DNA from: Promethearchaeia archaeon
GTDB taxonomy: Archaea > Asgardarchaeota > Lokiarchaeia > Sigyniarchaeales > SOKP01
DNA length: 32,000 nucleotides
Direction of reading: 5' to 3'
Assembly (NCBI GenBank): GCA_046497275.1
Contig: JAWOFX010000092.1
Span: 1 to 32,000 of the forward strand
The position numbers and the translations under genes are program-made. Positions 1-9,835 of this stretch are shown one piece after another. Under the pieces are notes generated by a model. The model saw nothing but the letters and a program-made list of their open reading frames with translations. It made no database searches and had not been told where the DNA came from. Position 1 is the first letter of the stretch. Each line of letters starts with the position of its first letter.

Positions 1-488
1 AATAGTTCAATTGATGGTCTATCTTCTCTGGTTCCAATATATCTCCATATTATATTCATTTCTTTATTGATCATGAATGTAGAAGGAATGGCTAATTTTG
101 TTTTGAGATATATGATATCTATGGCACTTCCAAAGGTATACACATTAAATTTCTTTGCAATTTTCGCTCCTCTGTCAGAAACTAATGGAAATTGATAATC
201 GAACTTATTTGACAATTTTTTGAGATGATTTTTGCTGTCACTGGCAATCGCTATAAAGATCACATTTCTTTTTTGAAATTCTGATATATTATGGTTAATT
301 TTTTCTAAATGTTCCTTGCAGGGAATTCAAAATGCTCCACGGAAGAAATCTATTAATATTCCTTCTGTTGTTTTCAATACTTCTTTAAATTCCAAAGTTC
401 TATTATTGATATCGATCAAAGCTTCAATAGGGCTTTTAGAACCCACTGGAATTCCTCTTTCTGAATTATTATTATCAATAACACTCAT
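1..488 (-). CDS. AhpC/TSA-family (peroxiredoxin-like) redoxin, probable selenoprotein with UxxC motif; 3' end runs off the window
   Basis: Manual translation from ATG at 488: MSVIDNNNSERGIPVGSKSPIEALIDINNRTLEFKEVLKTTEGILIDFFRGAF-[TGA 329-327]-IPCKEHLEKINHNISEFQKRNVIFIAIASDSKNHLKKLSNKFDYQFPLVSDRGAKIAKKFNVYTFGSAIDIIYLKTKLAIPSTFMINKEMNIIWRYIGTREDRPSIEL. The frame stays open for more than 100 codons after the TGA. FFRGAF-U-IPC matches the FYRGxWCPxC redoxin motif, and FPLVSD and AIPSTFMIN are also typical of the family. Confidence 0.88.
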
Positions 489-611
489 AAAAATATTTAT
501 GATTGAATATGATTTATTCCTTCTGTTAATGAAAAATAAATGAACAATATTAGAATAAATGGCTTTTATCGGAATTTTGTTATAGTTTTGTTATTTCTAA
601 AATGCAAATAG

Positions 612-627
612 AAAAACCTTCGCAAGG
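612..627 (-). terminator. Short GC hairpin plus U-tract, terminator-like
   Basis: Minus strand CCUU-GCG-AAGG-UUUUU, a GC-rich stretch in an AT-rich intergenic region. The stem is only 4 bp. Confidence 0.3.
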
Positions 628-670
628 CGGTCAACATAAATCTAAAATTTTCATTTATGTATCATCCCTT
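624..670 (-). promoter_or_regulatory. SECIS-like kink-turn stem-loop
   Basis: Minus-strand RNA: AAGG-GAU-GA-U-ACAUAAAU-GAAAAUUUUAG-AUUUAUGU-U-GA-CC-GCCUU. It has a perfect 8-bp upper stem, a U.U pair, tandem G.A/A.G pairs, a 3-nt GAU bulge, two G-C pairs closing the lower stem, and an A-run at the 5' side of the apical loop. Folded by hand only. Confidence 0.6.
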
Positions 671-695
671 TAATGTAGGTTCATAAAGCTATTTA

Positions 696-806
696 TCATT
701 TAAAATTAAATTTCATAAAATATTGGATTGATTTACATACTGGACAATAATTATAACCATATGAATTTTTATCCAATATTTTACCACAATTCTGACAGAT
801 AATCAT
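696..806 (-). CDS. Small zinc-ribbon protein (36 aa)
   Basis: MIICQNCGKILDKNSYGYNYCPVCKSIQYFMKFNFK-TGA-TAA; CxxC-x13-CxxC. Below the ORF-track length cutoff. Confidence 0.65.
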   Translation of the reverse strand: MIICQNCGKILDKNSYGYNYCPVCKSIQYFMKFNFK

Positions 807-944
807 CAAGATTTGAAAACTTAGAGAGAAATTAAAAATAAGTATTATTAATTAAAATTGCGATAATTTTATAATGATAAATAAATAAATTTTCATTAAT
901 TTATAAGATATCCAAAAAAATTATATAGAATTTTTAGATGAGTA

Positions 945-1985
945 ATGGCATTCGTAATCTATAATGATCAAAAATACCAAATAGAGAATGGAGTTTTAGA
1001 TTTAGGACTTTTAGGTATTAGGGATATATTAAATATTGAGGGACTAGATAAAATCGAAGATTTGAAACAATTGGATTTAGGTTCTAATGAACTTACTCAA
1101 ATAAATGGATTAAATAATCTTAGAGATTTGAGGATACTTAATTTAGGAAGTAATAAAATTAAAAAGATTTCTGGTTTAGATACTTTAAAAAATCTTGAGA
1201 TTTTGCATTTGGTGAGTAATCAAATCAGTCAAATCCAAGGTTTAGAAGAATTGGAAAATTTAAAAGAGCTTTATTTGAGGGGAAATAAGATTCAAACGAT
1301 TAAAGGGCTTGGAAATTTAAAGAATCTTGAGAAATTAGATCTATCTTGGAACCTTATCAAAAAAATTGAAGATTTAGAAAACCTCGAAAATTTAGAAGTT
1401 TTGTGGATTGCGGGAAATATGCTTGAAAACACAAAAGGTCTGAATAAATTAAATTCACTAAAAATTCTAAATTTAGCAGGAAATCAAATAAAAAAAATAG
1501 AAGCATTAGAAAATCTAAAAAATTTAGAGGAACTTTATTTGAACAATAATTTTATTGAAAAATTAGAAGAGCTAGGAAGTTTAGAAAAATTAGAATCTAT
1601 ATGGCTTAATAGTAATAGAATTGAAACTATTGAGGGATTAGACGGTCTTAGAAATCTTAAGTTATTAAATCTAAAAGAAAACAAGATATATCGGATTAAT
1701 GGATTATATAGATTAAAGGATCTAAAAGAACTTTATTTATCTGGTAATAAAATTATTAATATCACCGGCTTTGAGACTCTTACGAAATTGGAGACTTTAG
1801 ATCTGAATAATAACAAAATAAAAAGTATTACTGGTCTTGAATCTTTAACAAGTCTAAATTCTCTATGGATCAAGGGGAATCAGATACCAGAAGAGTTTTT
1901 AGAAAAGTTAGGTGGAATAGATCCCTCTGGATTTGCAAATAATCCTTTAAAATTTGTAGAATATTGTATAATTAAGATTTCTTAA
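945..1985 (+). CDS. Leucine-rich repeat protein, SDS22/internalin-like 22-aa repeats
   Basis: About 13 regular repeats of LxxLxxLxLxxNxIxxIxGLxx plus one irregular N-terminal repeat, ending in a C-cap (NNPLKFVEYC). Confidence 0.95.
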   Translation: MAFVIYNDQKYQIENGVLDLGLLGIRDILNIEGLDKIEDLKQLDLGSNELTQINGLNNLRDLRILNLGSNKIKKISGLDTLKNLEILHLVSNQISQIQGLEELENLKELYLRGNKIQTIKGLGNLKNLEKLDLSWNLIKKIEDLENLENLEVLWIAGNMLENTKGLNKLNSLKILNLAGNQIKKIEALENLKNLEELYLNNNFIEKLEELGSLEKLESIWLNSNRIETIEGLDGLRNLKLLNLKENKIYRINGLYRLKDLKELYLSGNKIINITGFETLTKLETLDLNNNKIKSITGLESLTSLNSLWIKGNQIPEEFLEKLGGIDPSGFANNPLKFVEYCIIKIS

Positions 1986-1993
1986 AAAAAAAA
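1984..1993 (-). terminator. Oligo-U terminator candidate for the MFS gene
   Basis: T10 run on the minus strand about 20 nt past the MFS stop at 2013, between convergent genes. Confidence 0.4.
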
Positions 1994-2012
1994 TTAGAGA
2001 ATTGAGGAGGAA

Positions 2013-3278
2013 TTATCTATCTCTTTCAATCTCTTCAAGCGATTGTCCTTTTGTTTCGTATGGTTTTATTAATAATGATAGTGTTGGGATAAGGATAATT
2101 ATTCCTGCTACCATCCACAATAAAAACATATCTGGATCTATTAGAAACAAAGCAGATGCAATTAAAGGTCCTGTGACATATGAAGAACGAGCTGCGGTAT
2201 TTGTTATTCCTACAGCAGTTGATCTGATTCTAGTTGGAAATATTTCACCAAAATATACCATTATCCATGCTAAAACAACAGGCATGAATAAATAGATCAT
2301 CCAGAAGAATATAGGTTCTTGTGTAAATCCTAAAAAGAAAAACCCAATAGCAGAACCAATACAACCAATAAGTAAAGTTCCAATTCTTCCAAGTTTATCT
2401 AATAAGAGTCCTCCAATTCCAGCTCCTACCATTGTTAGTAAACCACCAATTGTCAAATAAGTGTCATATTGTTCTTCAGGAATTCCTACTACATTTATAT
2501 AATATTCGCCACCCCAACTAGTACCCATTTTAAATGAGATAGACCAAAGAGTATACACTATTGAGGAAATTGCCACGTAAAGAATATCTTTCTTTGTCAA
2601 TGATTTTATTGCATCTTTTATTTTTAAATATTTACCTCCATGATCTTCTTGTCTACTTGTTTTCCATCTTTCAGTCTCCTTCATGAAATACAAAGGGATC
2701 AATAGGATTAAAAATAAGAAAAACATAATACCATAGGCCCAATACCAACCTAATGAAGTTGATATCCTTCCGGCTACAAAAGCATATATAGGTATCAACC
2801 CAATTAGAAATGTCAGGCCACCATAAATCCCACGCTTCTTAGAGGGAGACTCTTCAGTAATAGGAATTTGCCATGCATTTGATTGAGTCGCCATTATAGA
2901 AATTCCATACATGGTCATTATAAAAAAGAAATTACCGGGAAAAAGCCCAATAAATAGACATGGGATTGCTAAGGTTGACATTAACAATAATATACCTTTT
3001 CTCCTACCGAATGCATCAAAAAACCAAGCAATGAAAAATACAGCAAATGATATTATCCCATATATTGATTGCCAAAAAGCAAAAGTATCTTTATTTAACC
3101 ATGGATAAAAAGCTATAATCTCAGGTATTATCCGAGATTCAACAAGCGAAATGAAATTATCCATGTTGCCTACTAGACCCATGAAAACTACCAAAAAAAT
3201 CATATAACCACGAGATCTTGGTTTAAATTCTTTTAATTCTTCTTCTTTTTTTTTTGCTAAAGCATCTAATTTTGCCAT
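2013..3278 (-). CDS. MFS transporter
   Basis: About 12 hydrophobic segments; motif A twice (FFDAFGRRKG, LLDKLGRIG); TEESPSKKRG and GEIFPTRIRSTAVG; C-terminal ETKGQSLEEI as in the sugar-porter/AAHS group. ATG at 3278 preferred over the TTG at 3293. Confidence 0.92.
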   Translation of the reverse strand: MAKLDALAKKKEEELKEFKPRSRGYMIFLVVFMGLVGNMDNFISLVESRIIPEIIAFYPWLNKDTFAFWQSIYGIISFAVFFIAWFFDAFGRRKGILLLMSTLAIPCLFIGLFPGNFFFIMTMYGISIMATQSNAWQIPITEESPSKKRGIYGGLTFLIGLIPIYAFVAGRISTSLGWYWAYGIMFFLFLILLIPLYFMKETERWKTSRQEDHGGKYLKIKDAIKSLTKKDILYVAISSIVYTLWSISFKMGTSWGGEYYINVVGIPEEQYDTYLTIGGLLTMVGAGIGGLLLDKLGRIGTLLIGCIGSAIGFFFLGFTQEPIFFWMIYLFMPVVLAWIMVYFGEIFPTRIRSTAVGITNTAARSSYVTGPLIASALFLIDPDMFLLWMVAGIIILIPTLSLLIKPYETKGQSLEEIERDR

Positions 3279-8353: not shown

Positions 8354-9835
8354 ATGACTACTATAAAAGATAACCAACGCTATAATGGCTTAAGTAAGGA
8401 AGATGTATACAAAAAATTGATCCAAATATTTGGAGACTCAAATGTAAGCAAACGAGCTGTTGATTTATATCCTTATTCCTATGATATGACAGAGTGCGAA
8501 GCTCATATGCCCGATTATGTGGTAATTCCAGAAAATTCTGAACAAATTATTGAATTAGTGAAGTTTTGTAATAAAAATATTATTCCAATCGTACCCTATA
8601 TCACTGGAAATAATGTAGGAGGGCTGACAATTCCTCAATATGGAGGAATTATATTAGATTTTAGTAAGAAAATGAATAAAATCCTTCATATCAATGAGGA
8701 TATGATGTATGCATTATTAGAACCAGGAGTCACTTTTGGTCAATTAAAAAAACACTTGGATGAAAAGTATCCTCACCTAAGATATAGCTATCCTTATGCG
8801 CCACCTTATGCAGGTGTGGTAGGTAATGCAATTTTGAGCGGTATGAATAACTTGTCTTGTAAAATCGGTTCTATGGGTGACTCTATTAATGGTTTAGAAG
8901 TTATAACTGCCGATGGAGAGGTTGCTAGAATAGGATCATGTTTTTATGGTGAAAAGGATGCAGATAAGGATAGCTGGTGGGCCAGATATCCAATGCCAGA
9001 TTTAATGGGTACATTTGTAAATTGGCAAGGTATGACTGGATTAGTAACTAAATGTGCAGTTCAGCTTTGGTCAAATCCTCCATACAAGAAAACTTTTCTC
9101 GTTTTAGTCAAGGGTTTAACAGATATTGCTCCAGTAATAAGAGAAATAGGAAAAACAGATGTGGTTGATGACGTTTCAGCGGTTAGTACAGAAGTGGTAA
9201 AAATGACCGTAGAGATTCCTGATCCCGAGAAATATCCGGGAGAACCTGATTTTGTTGCTCTTTTTCCGATATCTGGAAAAACAAAAAAATTATTAGAAGC
9301 TAAAAATGAAATTGTGCTAAATAAAATAAACGAATTGAAGAACCAAGGGAAAAATATAATTGTAGCGGATGTAGATGAGTTCGCCAAAATTTTCAATTTA
9401 CGTGTACGATGTCATTTAGATTTACCCGCAGTTCTATTATCTTTAGTTGAATATTCAGGTTTAACTTGGTTCGGCTCTTATGCTCCAACACATAAGTTAG
9501 AAGAATTAATCCAAAAAATTGATGAAATTTTCCATGAATATGATGTACCATCATTTATCTATATGAAAATCATGAAATCAGGTCATTATGGCATTTTCAG
9601 ACCTATTATACGCTATAATAAATATAAAGATGGCGAAGAAGAGAAAATCCATCAATTACTTAACGATATTACTGATTTTTGTCTAAGTAGGGGATGTATA
9701 CCTTATAAAACACCCTCTTGGATGACGGAAAAAATGCGAAAGAAAATAAATCCAGGCTGGTTGAAATTATTTGAAAAAATAAAAAATTGTATGGATCCTA
9801 ATAATATATTCAATCCAGGAAGGTGGAACACGTAA
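8354..9835 (+). CDS. FAD-binding oxidoreductase, VAO/PCMH-type fold (FAD_binding_4)
   Basis: PDYVVIPENSEQI, GGIILDF, EPGVT, GLEVITADG, PDLMG...GMTGLVTK and terminal DPNNIFNPG. Confidence 0.9.
   Translation: MTTIKDNQRYNGLSKEDVYKKLIQIFGDSNVSKRAVDLYPYSYDMTECEAHMPDYVVIPENSEQIIELVKFCNKNIIPIVPYITGNNVGGLTIPQYGGIILDFSKKMNKILHINEDMMYALLEPGVTFGQLKKHLDEKYPHLRYSYPYAPPYAGVVGNAILSGMNNLSCKIGSMGDSINGLEVITADGEVARIGSCFYGEKDADKDSWWARYPMPDLMGTFVNWQGMTGLVTKCAVQLWSNPPYKKTFLVLVKGLTDIAPVIREIGKTDVVDDVSAVSTEVVKMTVEIPDPEKYPGEPDFVALFPISGKTKKLLEAKNEIVLNKINELKNQGKNIIVADVDEFAKIFNLRVRCHLDLPAVLLSLVEYSGLTWFGSYAPTHKLEELIQKIDEIFHEYDVPSFIYMKIMKSGHYGIFRPIIRYNKYKDGEEEKIHQLLNDITDFCLSRGCIPYKTPSWMTEKMRKKINPGWLKLFEKIKNCMDPNNIFNPGRWNT

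What the first reader, a model, noticed from the sequence alone, without database searches (positions are those of the whole stretch)
624..670. Eukaryote-type SECIS/kink-turn hairpin lying upstream (5') of a UGA-containing gene
Seen: the minus strand folds as GG-[GAU]-GA-U-ACAUAAAU-(GAAAAUUUUAG)-AUUUAUGU-U-GA-CC. This gives the AUGA/UGA non-Watson-Crick core, a standard k-turn geometry (purine-purine-U bulge, G-C closing pairs), a perfect 8-bp stem and apical adenosines. Known: Lokiarchaeia use eukaryote-like SECIS elements, normally 3' of the selenoprotein gene, and a 5'-UTR SECIS is known for Methanocaldococcus fdhA. Inference: this element lies about 135 nt upstream of the redoxin start on the same strand. 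It could be a 5'-positioned or intercistronic SECIS, a SECIS for the small upstream ORF, or an L7Ae-bound regulatory k-turn. The upper stem is shorter than in eukaryotic SECIS elements.
Basis: partly seen in the sequence, partly recalled or inferred. Interest (0 to 1): 0.85.

Follow-up and report, generated by a model that had tools for sequence, protein, structure and literature searches.

The report
SECIS of hidden zinc-ribbon selenoprotein
The hairpin is a genuine Lokiarchaeia-type selenocysteine insertion signal, but it serves the tiny unannotated zinc-ribbon gene just before it, whose "stop" UGA is really a final selenocysteine, rather than the redoxin gene after it; this reveals a widespread selenoprotein family that I could not find in the catalogues I could search.

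Summary
The hairpin is real and is a textbook lokiSECIS: G-[GAU]-GA k-turn core, U.U plus 8 bp, an 11-nt A-rich loop ending AG, then GA-C. A model trained only on SECIS elements of known selenoprotein genes finds it at 53 bits (E 4.5e-10), the only significant hit in the window.

Its position is ordinary. It lies 27 nt after a 37-codon zinc-ribbon ORF (693-806, minus strand) that ends K-UGA-UAA.

I extracted 49 distinct orthologues of this ORF.
- 44 end UGA followed directly by UAA or UAG, and all 44 have a lokiSECIS downstream (27-49 nt in 43, about 130 nt in one).
- 5 end in Cys (TGT) plus a stop, and none has a SECIS.
- One orthologue also has UGA in place of the fourth zinc-ribbon Cys.

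So the terminal UGA almost certainly encodes selenocysteine.

The downstream PrxL redoxin has its own 3' SECIS in most relatives checked, including four of the five loci where the upstream SECIS is absent. The 5'-SECIS reading is therefore not supported.

Public protein sets cut the family at 36 residues and leave it unnamed. It is absent from the Asgard selenoprotein surveys I could read.

No expression or protein data could be obtained. The scan has noted bacterial zinc-ribbon C-terminal Sec proteins before, on other DNA.

The parts
693..806 (-). Unannotated 37-codon zinc-ribbon gene plus its true stop: ATG 804-806, C4-x2-C7-x13-C21-x2-C24, ...FNFK, Sec codon UGA 696-698, stop UAA 693-695.
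   Evidence: ORF listed. 49 distinct orthologues were aligned (A3); 47 are exactly 37 codons. M1, C4, C7, C21, C24 and K36 are invariant. The last position is U in 44 and C in 5. Mean pairwise differences at codon positions 1, 2 and 3 are 0.36, 0.28 and 0.52. AlphaFold2 gives a three-stranded zinc-ribbon-like fold with mean pLDDT 89.
696..698 (-). Terminal UGA, read as selenocysteine (inferred). It lies 30 nt upstream of the AUGA of the SECIS.
   Evidence: It aligns with TGT (Cys) in 5 orthologues that lack a SECIS. It is UGA plus an immediate UAA or UAG in the 44 that have one. In this genome TGA ends only 14% of long ORFs, and a stop is followed by TAA or TAG in 6-7%.
630..667 (-). lokiSECIS. 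Closing pair G667-C630; bulge G666 plus A665-U664; sheared G.A/A.G pairs from GA 662-663 and GA 631-632; U661.U633; stem 653-660 with 634-641; apical loop 642-652 (GAAAAUUUUAG).
   Evidence: All features given for the lokiSECIS in PMC4989117 are present.
612..628 (-). Conserved 3' motif GCCUU-GCG-AAGGU (616-628), which can form a short GC hairpin, followed by U5 (612-616). Possibly a SECIS accessory helix, a transcript 3' end, or both.
   Evidence: ACC..GGU sits at a fixed distance after GA-C in the 24 orthologous elements and in SECIS elements of VhuD, VhuU and PrxL. The RNAalifold consensus includes it. The CC/GG pairs never vary, so there is no covariation support. The U-run is not conserved in relatives.
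829..841 (-). A/T-rich box (UUAUUUUUAAUUU) 23-35 nt upstream of the ATG. Candidate TATA box of a short-leader transcript (inferred).
   Evidence: A TTTAAA/TTTATA-like box lies about 30-37 nt before the ATG in most of 27 orthologous upstream regions. No transcript data are available.
3..488 (-). Neighbouring PrxL (AhpC/TSA) selenoprotein gene with redox motif U54-I-P-C (UGA 327-329). Its 3' end is cut by the contig end. It is not the client of this SECIS.
   Evidence: AhpC-TSA, 70.9 bits. The window starts at base 1 of contig C167. Orthologues carry their own 3' SECIS. The missing 3' end is not found elsewhere in the assembly.
945..1985 (+). Divergently transcribed 346-aa leucine-rich-repeat protein, the most frequent neighbour of the small gene.
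   Evidence: Pfam LRR_4, 179.6 bits. Present next to the small ORF in 27 of 49 loci.

Best explanation
The hairpin is the 3'-UTR selenocysteine insertion sequence of the small zinc-ribbon gene at 693-806 (minus strand).

Proposed mechanism:
1. The gene is transcribed as a short mRNA from its own A/T box.
2. The ribosome reaches UGA at codon 37 while the k-turn hairpin, 30 nt downstream, is still folded outside the mRNA channel.
3. The SECIS, through the still unknown Lokiarchaeia SECIS-binding factor and the EFsec-like factor carrying Sec-tRNA(Sec), directs insertion of selenocysteine.
4. The next codon, UAA, terminates translation.

The product is a 37-residue protein with four zinc-ribbon or rubredoxin-type cysteines and selenocysteine as its very last residue (...FNFK-U).

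Shown: SECIS identity, conservation and covariation; the Sec/Cys alternation coupled to SECIS presence; presence of Sec machinery.

Inferred: actual Sec insertion, transcript boundaries, and the protein's function. The function is probably a thiol/selenol redox or metal-handling role, possibly linked to the PrxL that follows it in several genera.
For: 1. **SECIS identity.** The element meets every published lokiSECIS feature. Model R2, trained only on SECIS elements of VhuD, VhuU and PrxL, scores it at 53.4 bits, E 4.5e-10, the sole significant hit in the window.
2. **Position.** It starts 27 nt after the UAA of the small ORF, as lokiSECIS elements do after their genes.
3. **Distribution.** The small ORF is found in 101 of 134 other genomes of the same taxonomic family.
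4. **Sec/Cys alternation.** Of 49 distinct orthologues, 44 end K-UGA followed at once by UAA or UAG. All 44 have a lokiSECIS downstream, 27-49 nt in 43 and about 130 nt in one. The 5 that end K-TGT(Cys)-stop have none after the small ORF.
5. **Independent switches.** Cys forms occur in two genera (g11 and g5) that also contain U forms, so the switch happened at least twice.
6. **Second Sec.** The closest orthologue (G002) also has UGA in place of Cys24 (CPLU against CPVC).
7. **Chance expectation.** TGA ends only 14% of long ORFs here, and a second in-frame stop follows in 6-7%.
8. **Sec machinery in the genome.** tRNA-Sec scores 49.4 bits, over the cut-off. SepSecS scores 486 bits. An EFsec-like gene scores 234 bits, just under the bacterial SelB cut-off of 242. 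VhuD and VhuU carry UGA at known Sec positions with the same SECIS type.
9. **Coding signal.** Codon position 3 varies most, and length is fixed at 37 codons in 47 of 49.
Against: - There is no direct evidence of Sec insertion or of the transcript.
- Sec as the very last residue is not a pattern I know from characterised selenoproteins. From my own knowledge, Sec is penultimate or near the end in thioredoxin reductase, SelK and SelS.
- The UGA lies only 30 nt from the SECIS core. Mariotti et al. argue that the lokiSECIS has a minimal-distance requirement and that UGA codons very close to it act as stops.
- No curated protein family matches the ORF above threshold.
- The related genomes are not independent samples.
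Confidence: 0.85

Rival explanations
1. The hairpin is a 5'-positioned or intercistronic SECIS that recodes UGA54 of the downstream PrxL redoxin. This would resemble the 5'-UTR SECIS reported for one Methanocaldococcus gene.
For: It is on the same strand, 136 nt upstream of the PrxL ATG and about 295 nt upstream of its UGA. The 3' end of PrxL in this genome is off the contig, so its own SECIS cannot be shown here. The small ORF and PrxL are adjacent in 13 of 30 loci.
Against: - Orthologous PrxL genes have their own lokiSECIS after the gene. This includes the 73%-identical G002 gene, where the AUGA starts 11 nt after the stop.
- In four of the five loci where the small ORF ends in Cys, PrxL still carries UGA and has a 3' SECIS but no upstream one. 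The fifth, G021, has only the 3' SECIS.
- The upstream SECIS occurs in many loci with no PrxL.
- In this genome a U5 run follows the element.
Confidence: 0.03
2. The SECIS is dual-use. It serves the small ORF and, on a read-through bicistronic mRNA, also contributes to PrxL decoding.
For: HdrA and VhuD pairs share a single lokiSECIS in Lokiarchaeia (PMC4989117). The small ORF to PrxL order is kept across several genera. The U-run after the element is not conserved in relatives.
Against: Shared SECIS elements described so far lie downstream of both genes. PrxL has its own 3' SECIS in relatives. There is no transcript evidence.
Confidence: 0.05
3. The UGA is a true stop. The hairpin is a k-turn bound by L7Ae, or a stabiliser or terminator element at the 3' end of the small mRNA, with no role in recoding.
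For: The k-turn consensus (G-C closing pair, 3-nt bulge, tandem G.A) is what L7Ae-type proteins recognise. That is established knowledge and was not tested here. A GC hairpin plus U5 follows the element. Public gene callers end the protein at K36.
Against: This does not explain four observations.
- Position 37 is a Cys codon in the 5 orthologues that lack the hairpin.
- All 44 UGA forms keep a second stop directly behind the UGA.
- One orthologue has a second UGA at a zinc-ribbon Cys.
- The same RNA family follows VhuD, VhuU and PrxL genes with internal Sec codons.
Confidence: 0.05
4. The SECIS is a relic or a duplicated copy with no present function.
For: A 76%-identical copy exists at C100:58455-58521 after a different small ORF. 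SECIS elements appear to spread between genes (PMC11227280).
Against: The element is kept at the orthologous place across many genera, with compensatory stem changes and invariant core nucleotides. It is lost exactly where Sec is replaced by Cys.
Confidence: 0.02

Closest known systems
lokiSECIS (Mariotti et al. 2016, PMC4989117), which is the type I eSECIS-like element of Asgard archaea (Huang et al. 2024, PMC11227280)
   Same: AUGA before the stem. A 9-position stem (here U.U plus 8 bp). An 11-nt apical loop with A-rich 5' half and terminal AG. GA after the stem. Location a few tens of nt after the stop of a selenoprotein gene. It is recognised by a model built from such elements.
   Different: The client gene is not one of the published Asgard selenoprotein families (SelD, VhuU/FrhA, HdrA, VhuD/FrhD, PrxL, AhpF-N homologue, DsbA-like). 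The recoded UGA is the last sense codon, only 30 nt from the core. That is closer than any Sec codon of the VhuD, VhuU or PrxL genes seen here.
Eukaryotic type I SECIS (k-turn, AUGA..AA..GA)
   Same: The same non-Watson-Crick core, unpaired adenosines in the apical loop about 10 nt after the core, and a 3'-UTR position.
   Different: The upper stem is shorter (9 positions). There is no long helix I. No Rfam SECIS family matches even at E<=10. No SBP2 is known in Lokiarchaeia (PMC4989117). From my own knowledge, eukaryotic elements need roughly 50 nt or more between UGA and SECIS.
5'-UTR SECIS of a Methanocaldococcus jannaschii selenoprotein gene (Wilting et al. 1997, as cited in PMC4989117)
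   Same: It is an archaeal SECIS lying upstream of a UGA-containing gene on the same strand.
   Different: That element is of the GAA_A archaeal type and is the gene's only SECIS. Here the downstream gene has its own 3' SECIS in relatives, and the element follows another UGA-ending gene.
Bacterial FmdB-family zinc-ribbon selenoproteins (Zhang and Gladyshev 2008, PMC2398784: 'putative regulatory protein, FmdB family', CxxU motif)
   Same: A small CxxC...CxxC zinc-ribbon protein in which a cysteine is replaced by Sec. Annotation truncates the protein.
   Different: The bacterial SECIS lies inside or just after the ORF and is bound by SelB. The Pfam and NCBIfam scans at E<=1 listed neither the FmdB/Zn_ribbon_8 family nor NCBIfam 'protein DG' (NF049953). 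I recall the FmdB accession from memory. The archaeal family is 37 residues long with Sec as the final residue.
C-terminal-Sec selenoproteins of eukaryotes (thioredoxin reductase GCUG, SelK, SelS), from established knowledge
   Same: Sec sits on a flexible C-terminal tail. The AlphaFold2 model has residues 33-37 as coil.
   Different: In those proteins Sec is penultimate or third from the end, and they are not homologous. Here Sec is the last residue.

Membership tests
lokiSECIS / Asgard type I eSECIS-like element | AUGA immediately 5' of the stem | tested here: met
   AUGA at 662-665(-). Invariant in 24 orthologous elements.
lokiSECIS / Asgard type I eSECIS-like element | Stem of 9 positions and an 11-nt apical loop (Huang model: 7-15 bp stem, 8-20 nt loop) | tested here: met
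   U.U plus 8 Watson-Crick pairs, and an 11-nt loop. All 8 pairs show covariation.
lokiSECIS / Asgard type I eSECIS-like element | A-rich first five loop nucleotides, and G at the last loop position preceded by A | tested here: met
   The loop is GAAAAUUUUAG. AAA and the final G are invariant in the alignment.
lokiSECIS / Asgard type I eSECIS-like element | GA (or AA) directly 3' of the stem | tested here: met
   U-GA-C at 630-633. A-C invariant in the 24 orthologues; the G is A in two, the allowed AA variant.
lokiSECIS / Asgard type I eSECIS-like element | Lies just downstream of a selenoprotein coding sequence | tested here: met
   27 nt after the UAA of the small ORF. The ORF's UGA aligns with Cys in SECIS-less orthologues.
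lokiSECIS / Asgard type I eSECIS-like element | Recognised by a profile of accepted family members | tested here: met
   R2 (VhuD, VhuU and PrxL elements only): 53.4 bits, E 4.5e-10.
lokiSECIS / Asgard type I eSECIS-like element | Directs Sec insertion in vivo | not testable with these tools
   This needs labelling, mass spectrometry or a reporter assay.
Eukaryotic SECIS (Rfam SECIS families) | Match to the curated covariance models | tested here: not met
   No SECIS family among the matches up to E 10 in 1-3000. Mariotti et al. also report that standard SECIS tools miss lokiSECIS elements.
Kink-turn (Kt-7 or box C/D type) | Canonical closing pair, 3-nt bulge, tandem sheared G.A/A.G, then a non-canonical stem | tested here: met
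   At sequence level only: G667-C630, bulge G-A-U, GA/GA, U.U. The three-dimensional fold and L7Ae binding are not testable here.
5'-UTR SECIS serving the downstream gene | The downstream selenoprotein gene lacks its own 3' SECIS and depends on the upstream element | tested here: not met
   Orthologous PrxL genes have 3' SECIS elements, including in loci with no upstream SECIS. In this genome the 3' region is beyond the contig end.
Selenoprotein gene (comparative criteria) | An in-frame UGA aligned with Cys in homologues | tested here: met
   Position 37 is UGA in 44 and TGT in 5. Position 24 is UGA in G002 and Cys elsewhere.
Selenoprotein gene (comparative criteria) | SECIS present with UGA forms and absent with Cys forms | tested here: met
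   44 of 44 against 0 of 5. The related genomes are not independent, but there were at least two switches.
Selenoprotein gene (comparative criteria) | The genome encodes the Sec machinery | tested here: met
   tRNA-Sec, SepSecS and an EFsec-like gene at 234 bits, just under the bacterial SelB cut-off.
FmdB / Zn_ribbon_8 family | Match to the family profile | tested here: not met
   Not among the Pfam or NCBIfam hits at E<=1. Only sub-threshold generic zinc-ribbon families appear: Zn_ribbon_3, RpoP, Spt4, HypA and the rubrerythrin rubredoxin-like domain.

The most novel reading that the evidence does not exclude
The 37-codon gene is the founding member of an uncatalogued Lokiarchaeia selenoprotein family. 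It is a mini zinc-ribbon or rubredoxin-knuckle protein whose last residue is selenocysteine. The Sec codon is a UGA only 30-52 nt upstream of a eukaryote-like k-turn SECIS and is followed at once by a real stop. If so, it gives a natural lower bound for the UGA-to-SECIS distance in the system thought to be ancestral to the eukaryotic one. It also shows that homology-based surveys miss selenoproteins whose Sec codon looks like the stop codon.
Probability: 0.6. Interest if true: 0.65.

Novelty: new member of a known kind. Interest (0 to 1): 0.6.

Why it matters
The RNA element itself is already known; its client gene is not.

- **Scale of the family.** Asgard selenoproteomes have been surveyed twice (2016 and 2024), and a 2026 review counts 11 archaeal selenoprotein families. 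None is a zinc-ribbon protein. This family is found in about three quarters of the genomes of one Lokiarchaeia family. Public protein sets list it only as an unnamed 36-residue protein.
- **A blind spot.** A Sec codon at the last position is invisible both to gene callers and to searches that need sequence after the UGA.
- **Mechanism.** The eukaryote-like lokiSECIS would work on a UGA about 30 nt away, whereas UGA codons inside the element act as stops. [quoted passage not shown]
- **Anomaly removed.** There is no evidence here for a 5' SECIS.

Tried and rejected
- **Rfam scan** of 1-3000 at E<=10 found no SECIS or k-turn family. This is expected, because lokiSECIS is not in Rfam.
- **The search for related loci** with the family alignment found no stretch conserved enough.
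- **Foldseek** of the AlphaFold2 model against the PDB gave nothing at E<=0.001. There were only weak resemblances to small zinc-ribbon ribosomal proteins, RNA polymerase subunit P and desulforedoxin.
- **Search for the missing PrxL 3' end** and its SECIS elsewhere in the assembly found only the part already on the contig.
- **aragorn** in the script box found no tRNA-Sec. The Rfam model did.
- **A box C/D sRNA was considered and rejected.** The GAUGA and UGA boxes are only 29 nt apart, and there are no C'/D' boxes or guide regions.
- **PrxL as obligate partner was considered and rejected.** It is downstream in only 13 of 30 loci, while an LRR protein gene is divergent in 27 of 49.
- **The 3' mini-hairpin** is conserved in sequence but shows no covariation, so its structure remains unproven.

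Full report
**1. What is in the sequence**

On the minus strand, 667 to 630 reads G-[GAU]-GA-U-ACAUAAAU-GAAAAUUUUAG-AUUUAUGU-U-GA-C. RNAfold forms the perfect 8-bp stem with an 11-nt loop.

Directly 3' lies GCCUU-GCG-AAGGU (628-616) and a U5 run (616-612). The window begins at base 1 of contig C167 of a 3.85-Mb assembly with 30% G+C and 188 contigs. The redoxin gene on the minus strand therefore runs off the contig end.

**2. Identity of the element**

Mariotti et al. 2016 define the lokiSECIS by five features (PMC4989117):
- AUGA before the stem;
- a 9-bp stem;
- an 11-nt apical loop whose first five nucleotides are mostly A;
- an ultraconserved G at the last loop position, usually preceded by A;
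- GA after the stem.

Huang et al. 2024 give a looser type I model with a GA_[G/A]A core, a 7-15 bp stem and an 8-20 nt loop (PMC11227280). The element meets every point.

A simple descriptor scan of the genome recovered a small family with the same 8-bp stem and 11-12-nt loop.

As an independent test I built model R2 only from elements that follow known selenoprotein genes. These were four VhuD and two VhuU of this genome and six PrxL of relatives. With filters off, R2 finds 608-674(-) at 53.4 bits, E 4.5e-10. The next best hit in the 32 kb scores 17.3 bits.

Model R1 finds 9 hits with E<0.01 in the whole genome. Five of them follow VhuD or VhuU genes that carry UGA at the known Sec positions. 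The motif is therefore rare and specific, not a common intergenic hairpin.

The genome has the Sec machinery:
- tRNA-Sec at 49.4 bits, over the Rfam cut-off;
- SepSecS at 486 bits;
- an EFsec-like gene at 234 bits, just under the bacterial SelB cut-off of 242.

**3. Which gene it serves**

Between the divergent LRR gene (945-1985, plus strand) and the hairpin there is one ORF: MIICQNCGKILDKNSYGYNYCPVCKSIQYFMKFNFK-UGA-UAA (693-806, minus strand). The AUGA of the SECIS starts 27 nt after the UAA.

*Distribution.* A profile of the first five orthologues finds the ORF in 101 of 134 other genomes of the same taxonomic family, and in few outside it.

*Orthologue set.* I extracted 49 distinct orthologues.
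- 47 are exactly 37 codons long.
- M1, C4, C7, C21, C24 and K36 are invariant.
- Codon position 3 varies most, at 0.52 against 0.36 and 0.28.

*Last codon.* It is UGA in 44 and TGT (Cys) in 5.
- Every UGA form is followed at once by UAA or UAG.
- Every UGA form has a lokiSECIS downstream, 27-49 nt away in 43 and about 130 nt away in one.
- None of the five Cys forms has a SECIS after the small ORF. The only SECIS in those loci follows PrxL.

*Independence.* The Cys forms lie in two genera that also hold U forms, so the switch occurred at least twice.

*Second Sec.* The closest orthologue (G002) has a second UGA in place of Cys24, CPLU against CPVC.

*Chance expectation.* In this genome TGA ends only 14% of long ORFs, and a stop is followed by TAA or TAG in 6-7%. 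A conserved UGA-UAR pair is not what chance or drift gives.

These are the standard comparative criteria for a selenoprotein gene, and here they apply to the last codon.

**4. Why it is not the redoxin's SECIS**

The PrxL gene (3-488, U54-IPC; AhpC-TSA 70.9 bits) has orthologues in many relatives.
- In G002 (73% identical) the order on the strand is: small ORF, SECIS, PrxL, SECIS, second PrxL, SECIS.
- Own 3' SECIS elements were also found after PrxL in G009, G016, G021, G062, G066, G073 and G099, and in G108 and G063.
- In four of the five Cys-form loci PrxL still has its Sec codon and 3' SECIS but no upstream SECIS.
- The small ORF with its SECIS stands without PrxL in 17 of 30 loci of 3.1 kb.

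The presence of the element follows the small ORF's codon 37, not PrxL. In this genome the last 9 or so codons of PrxL and its 3' UTR are beyond the contig end and are not elsewhere in the assembly.

**5. Structure conservation**

- In 24 orthologous elements all 8 stem pairs have compensatory changes. 94.8% of cells are paired against 30-48% when slid, and 0 of 500 shuffles reach the covariation score. The same holds on 43 elements aligned to R2.
- The closing G-C pair, AUGA, loop AAA, last loop G and A-C of the 3' GA-C are invariant in the 24 orthologues; the G of that GA is A in two of them.
- The second closing pair varies and is paired in only about 58% of cases.
- After GA-C comes a conserved ACC..GGU motif that can form a small hairpin. 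It is also present after the SECIS elements of VhuD, VhuU and PrxL. Its CC/GG pairs never vary, so covariation says nothing either way.
- I did not find this motif described in the text of PMC4989117. I could not see that paper's figures.

**6. Mechanism proposed**

The gene has a conserved A/T box about 30 nt before its ATG. This suggests its own short-leader transcript, which is an inference.

When UGA37 is in the A site, the SECIS core is 30 nt downstream. From general knowledge of ribosome footprints, that is just beyond the stretch of mRNA covered by the ribosome, so the element can stay folded. This too is an inference. Sec is then inserted and the next codon stops translation.

UGA codons that overlap the AUGA of a lokiSECIS serve as true stops. 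This is seen in VhuU and VhuD here, in PrxL of G108, and as noted by Mariotti et al.. Together these observations place the minimal working distance between 0 and about 30 nt.

**7. The protein**

AlphaFold2 with the 49-sequence alignment gives a confident three-stranded zinc-ribbon-like fold, with mean pLDDT 89 and residues 33-37 as coil.
- Pfam and NCBIfam give only sub-threshold generic zinc-ribbon hits: Zn_ribbon_3, RpoP, Spt4, HypA and the rubrerythrin rubredoxin-like domain.
- Foldseek against the PDB gives nothing significant.
- The knuckles CxxCG and CPxC are rubredoxin-like. Replacement of Cys24 by Sec in one species suggests these cysteines may be redox-active or metal-binding rather than purely structural. 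That is my inference.
- Neighbours vary. An LRR protein gene is divergent in 27 of 49 loci. PrxL is downstream in 13 of 30. A 235-residue ORF whose sequence I judged AlaX-like by eye (not run against Pfam) is downstream in others.

I therefore commit only to 'small thiol/selenol redox or metal-handling protein, possibly working with PrxL', and with low confidence.

**8. Novelty**

- A library of 1.84 billion representative proteins holds the family only as unnamed proteins that end at K36, mostly 36 residues long.
- Gene calls on public contigs likewise split PrxL at its UGA.
- The Asgard surveys list SelD, VhuU/FrhA, HdrA, VhuD/FrhD, PrxL, an AhpF-N homologue and DsbA-like.
- The 2026 review counts 11 archaeal families (PMC13188914).
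- Full-text searches for a zinc-ribbon selenoprotein in Asgard or archaea found nothing relevant.
- The nearest precedent is the bacterial FmdB-family zinc-ribbon selenoprotein with a CxxU motif (PMC2398784). Earlier reports of this scan pointed me to it. The archaeal family does not match that profile.

**9. Limits**

There are no RNA or protein data. Organism names are withheld, so 'Lokiarchaeia' rests on the SECIS type and the selenoproteome. The related genomes are not independent, so the 44/0 against 0/5 split should be read as at least two coupled switches, not as 49 trials.

Noticed in passing
L002:1459-1525 (G000:C100:58455-58521, minus strand): A second copy of the whole module (SECIS plus GCCUUGCGAAGGUUUU) is 76% identical to the window's. 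Five of its 8 stem pairs are changed in a compensatory way. It lies 24 nt after a small membrane-type ORF that has an in-frame UGA (...NQPNSGEPSG-U-AYIMSLIPFYFDMLLI). A HEPN-like gene follows. This is a candidate further small selenoprotein, or a stop-codon extension. It has no Pfam match.
   Followed up: partly
L007:1311-1706 and L007:1914-2276 (G000:C185, SECIS at 8705 and 9275, plus strand): Two tandem ORFs carry ...NSTUTTFFCG... and ...SGSUSGYFC... Each ends in a UGA that is the UGA of the AUGA of its own lokiSECIS. The second has a sub-threshold hit to Fe-S_biosyn (HesB/IscA, 23.1 bits against a cut-off of 26.3). A HesB-like family is not in the Asgard list of Huang et al. 2024. Neither ORF has an ATG before the Sec codon.
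   Followed up: partly
L005:1517-1996 (G000:C118, SECIS 75934-75999, minus strand): A 160-codon ORF with two adjacent UGA codons (...DIQPDSGC-U-U-EKVRN...) is followed 25 nt after its stop by a lokiSECIS (23 bits with R1). It has no Pfam family. It may be a new selenoprotein, or an ORF that really ends at the first UGA.
   Followed up: partly
L003:1553-1625 (G000:C74:13052-13124, plus strand): A SECIS-like element with an atypical 17-nt loop (42 bits with R1) lies 11 nt after a long ORF (314 codons stop to stop, ...SLDCGK). The only UGA in that frame is far upstream. Its client gene is unclear.
   Followed up: no
window 612-628 (minus strand), and after every lokiSECIS inspected: A conserved ACC(Y)..(R)GGU motif starts 2-3 nt after the GA-C of the SECIS and can form a 3-6-bp hairpin. 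The CC and GG are invariant in 41-42 of 43 elements. I did not find it mentioned in the text of PMC4989117. It may be a helix-I substitute or a protein contact.
   Followed up: partly
window 3-488 (minus strand); L085 and L086: Table-11 ORF calling splits the PrxL selenoprotein at its UGA (53 aa plus 87 aa here). Public contigs show 48- and 45-residue fragments after the small ORF. In this assembly the gene also loses its last 9 or so codons and its SECIS at the contig end.
   Followed up: yes
L082 (G000:C33:11-129) and L083 (G000:C165:63-181): Two tRNA-Sec matches have identical scores (49.4 bits), each within 200 nt of a contig end. One is beside SepSecS (C33:2126-3427) and the other beside the EFsec-like gene (C165:3461-4498). 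The two contigs probably join through one tRNA-Sec gene. Each match spans 119 nt against a 91-position model, which suggests an insertion or intron.
   Followed up: no
relatives: G017:C53:21965-22057, G016:C24:2203-2295, G002:C10:32268-32673, G005:C174:199-294: Further small zinc-ribbon ORFs (50-65 codons, matching positions 2-34 of the family profile) lie just downstream of PrxL in several relatives. PrxL is thus often flanked by zinc-ribbon mini-genes on both sides.
   Followed up: no
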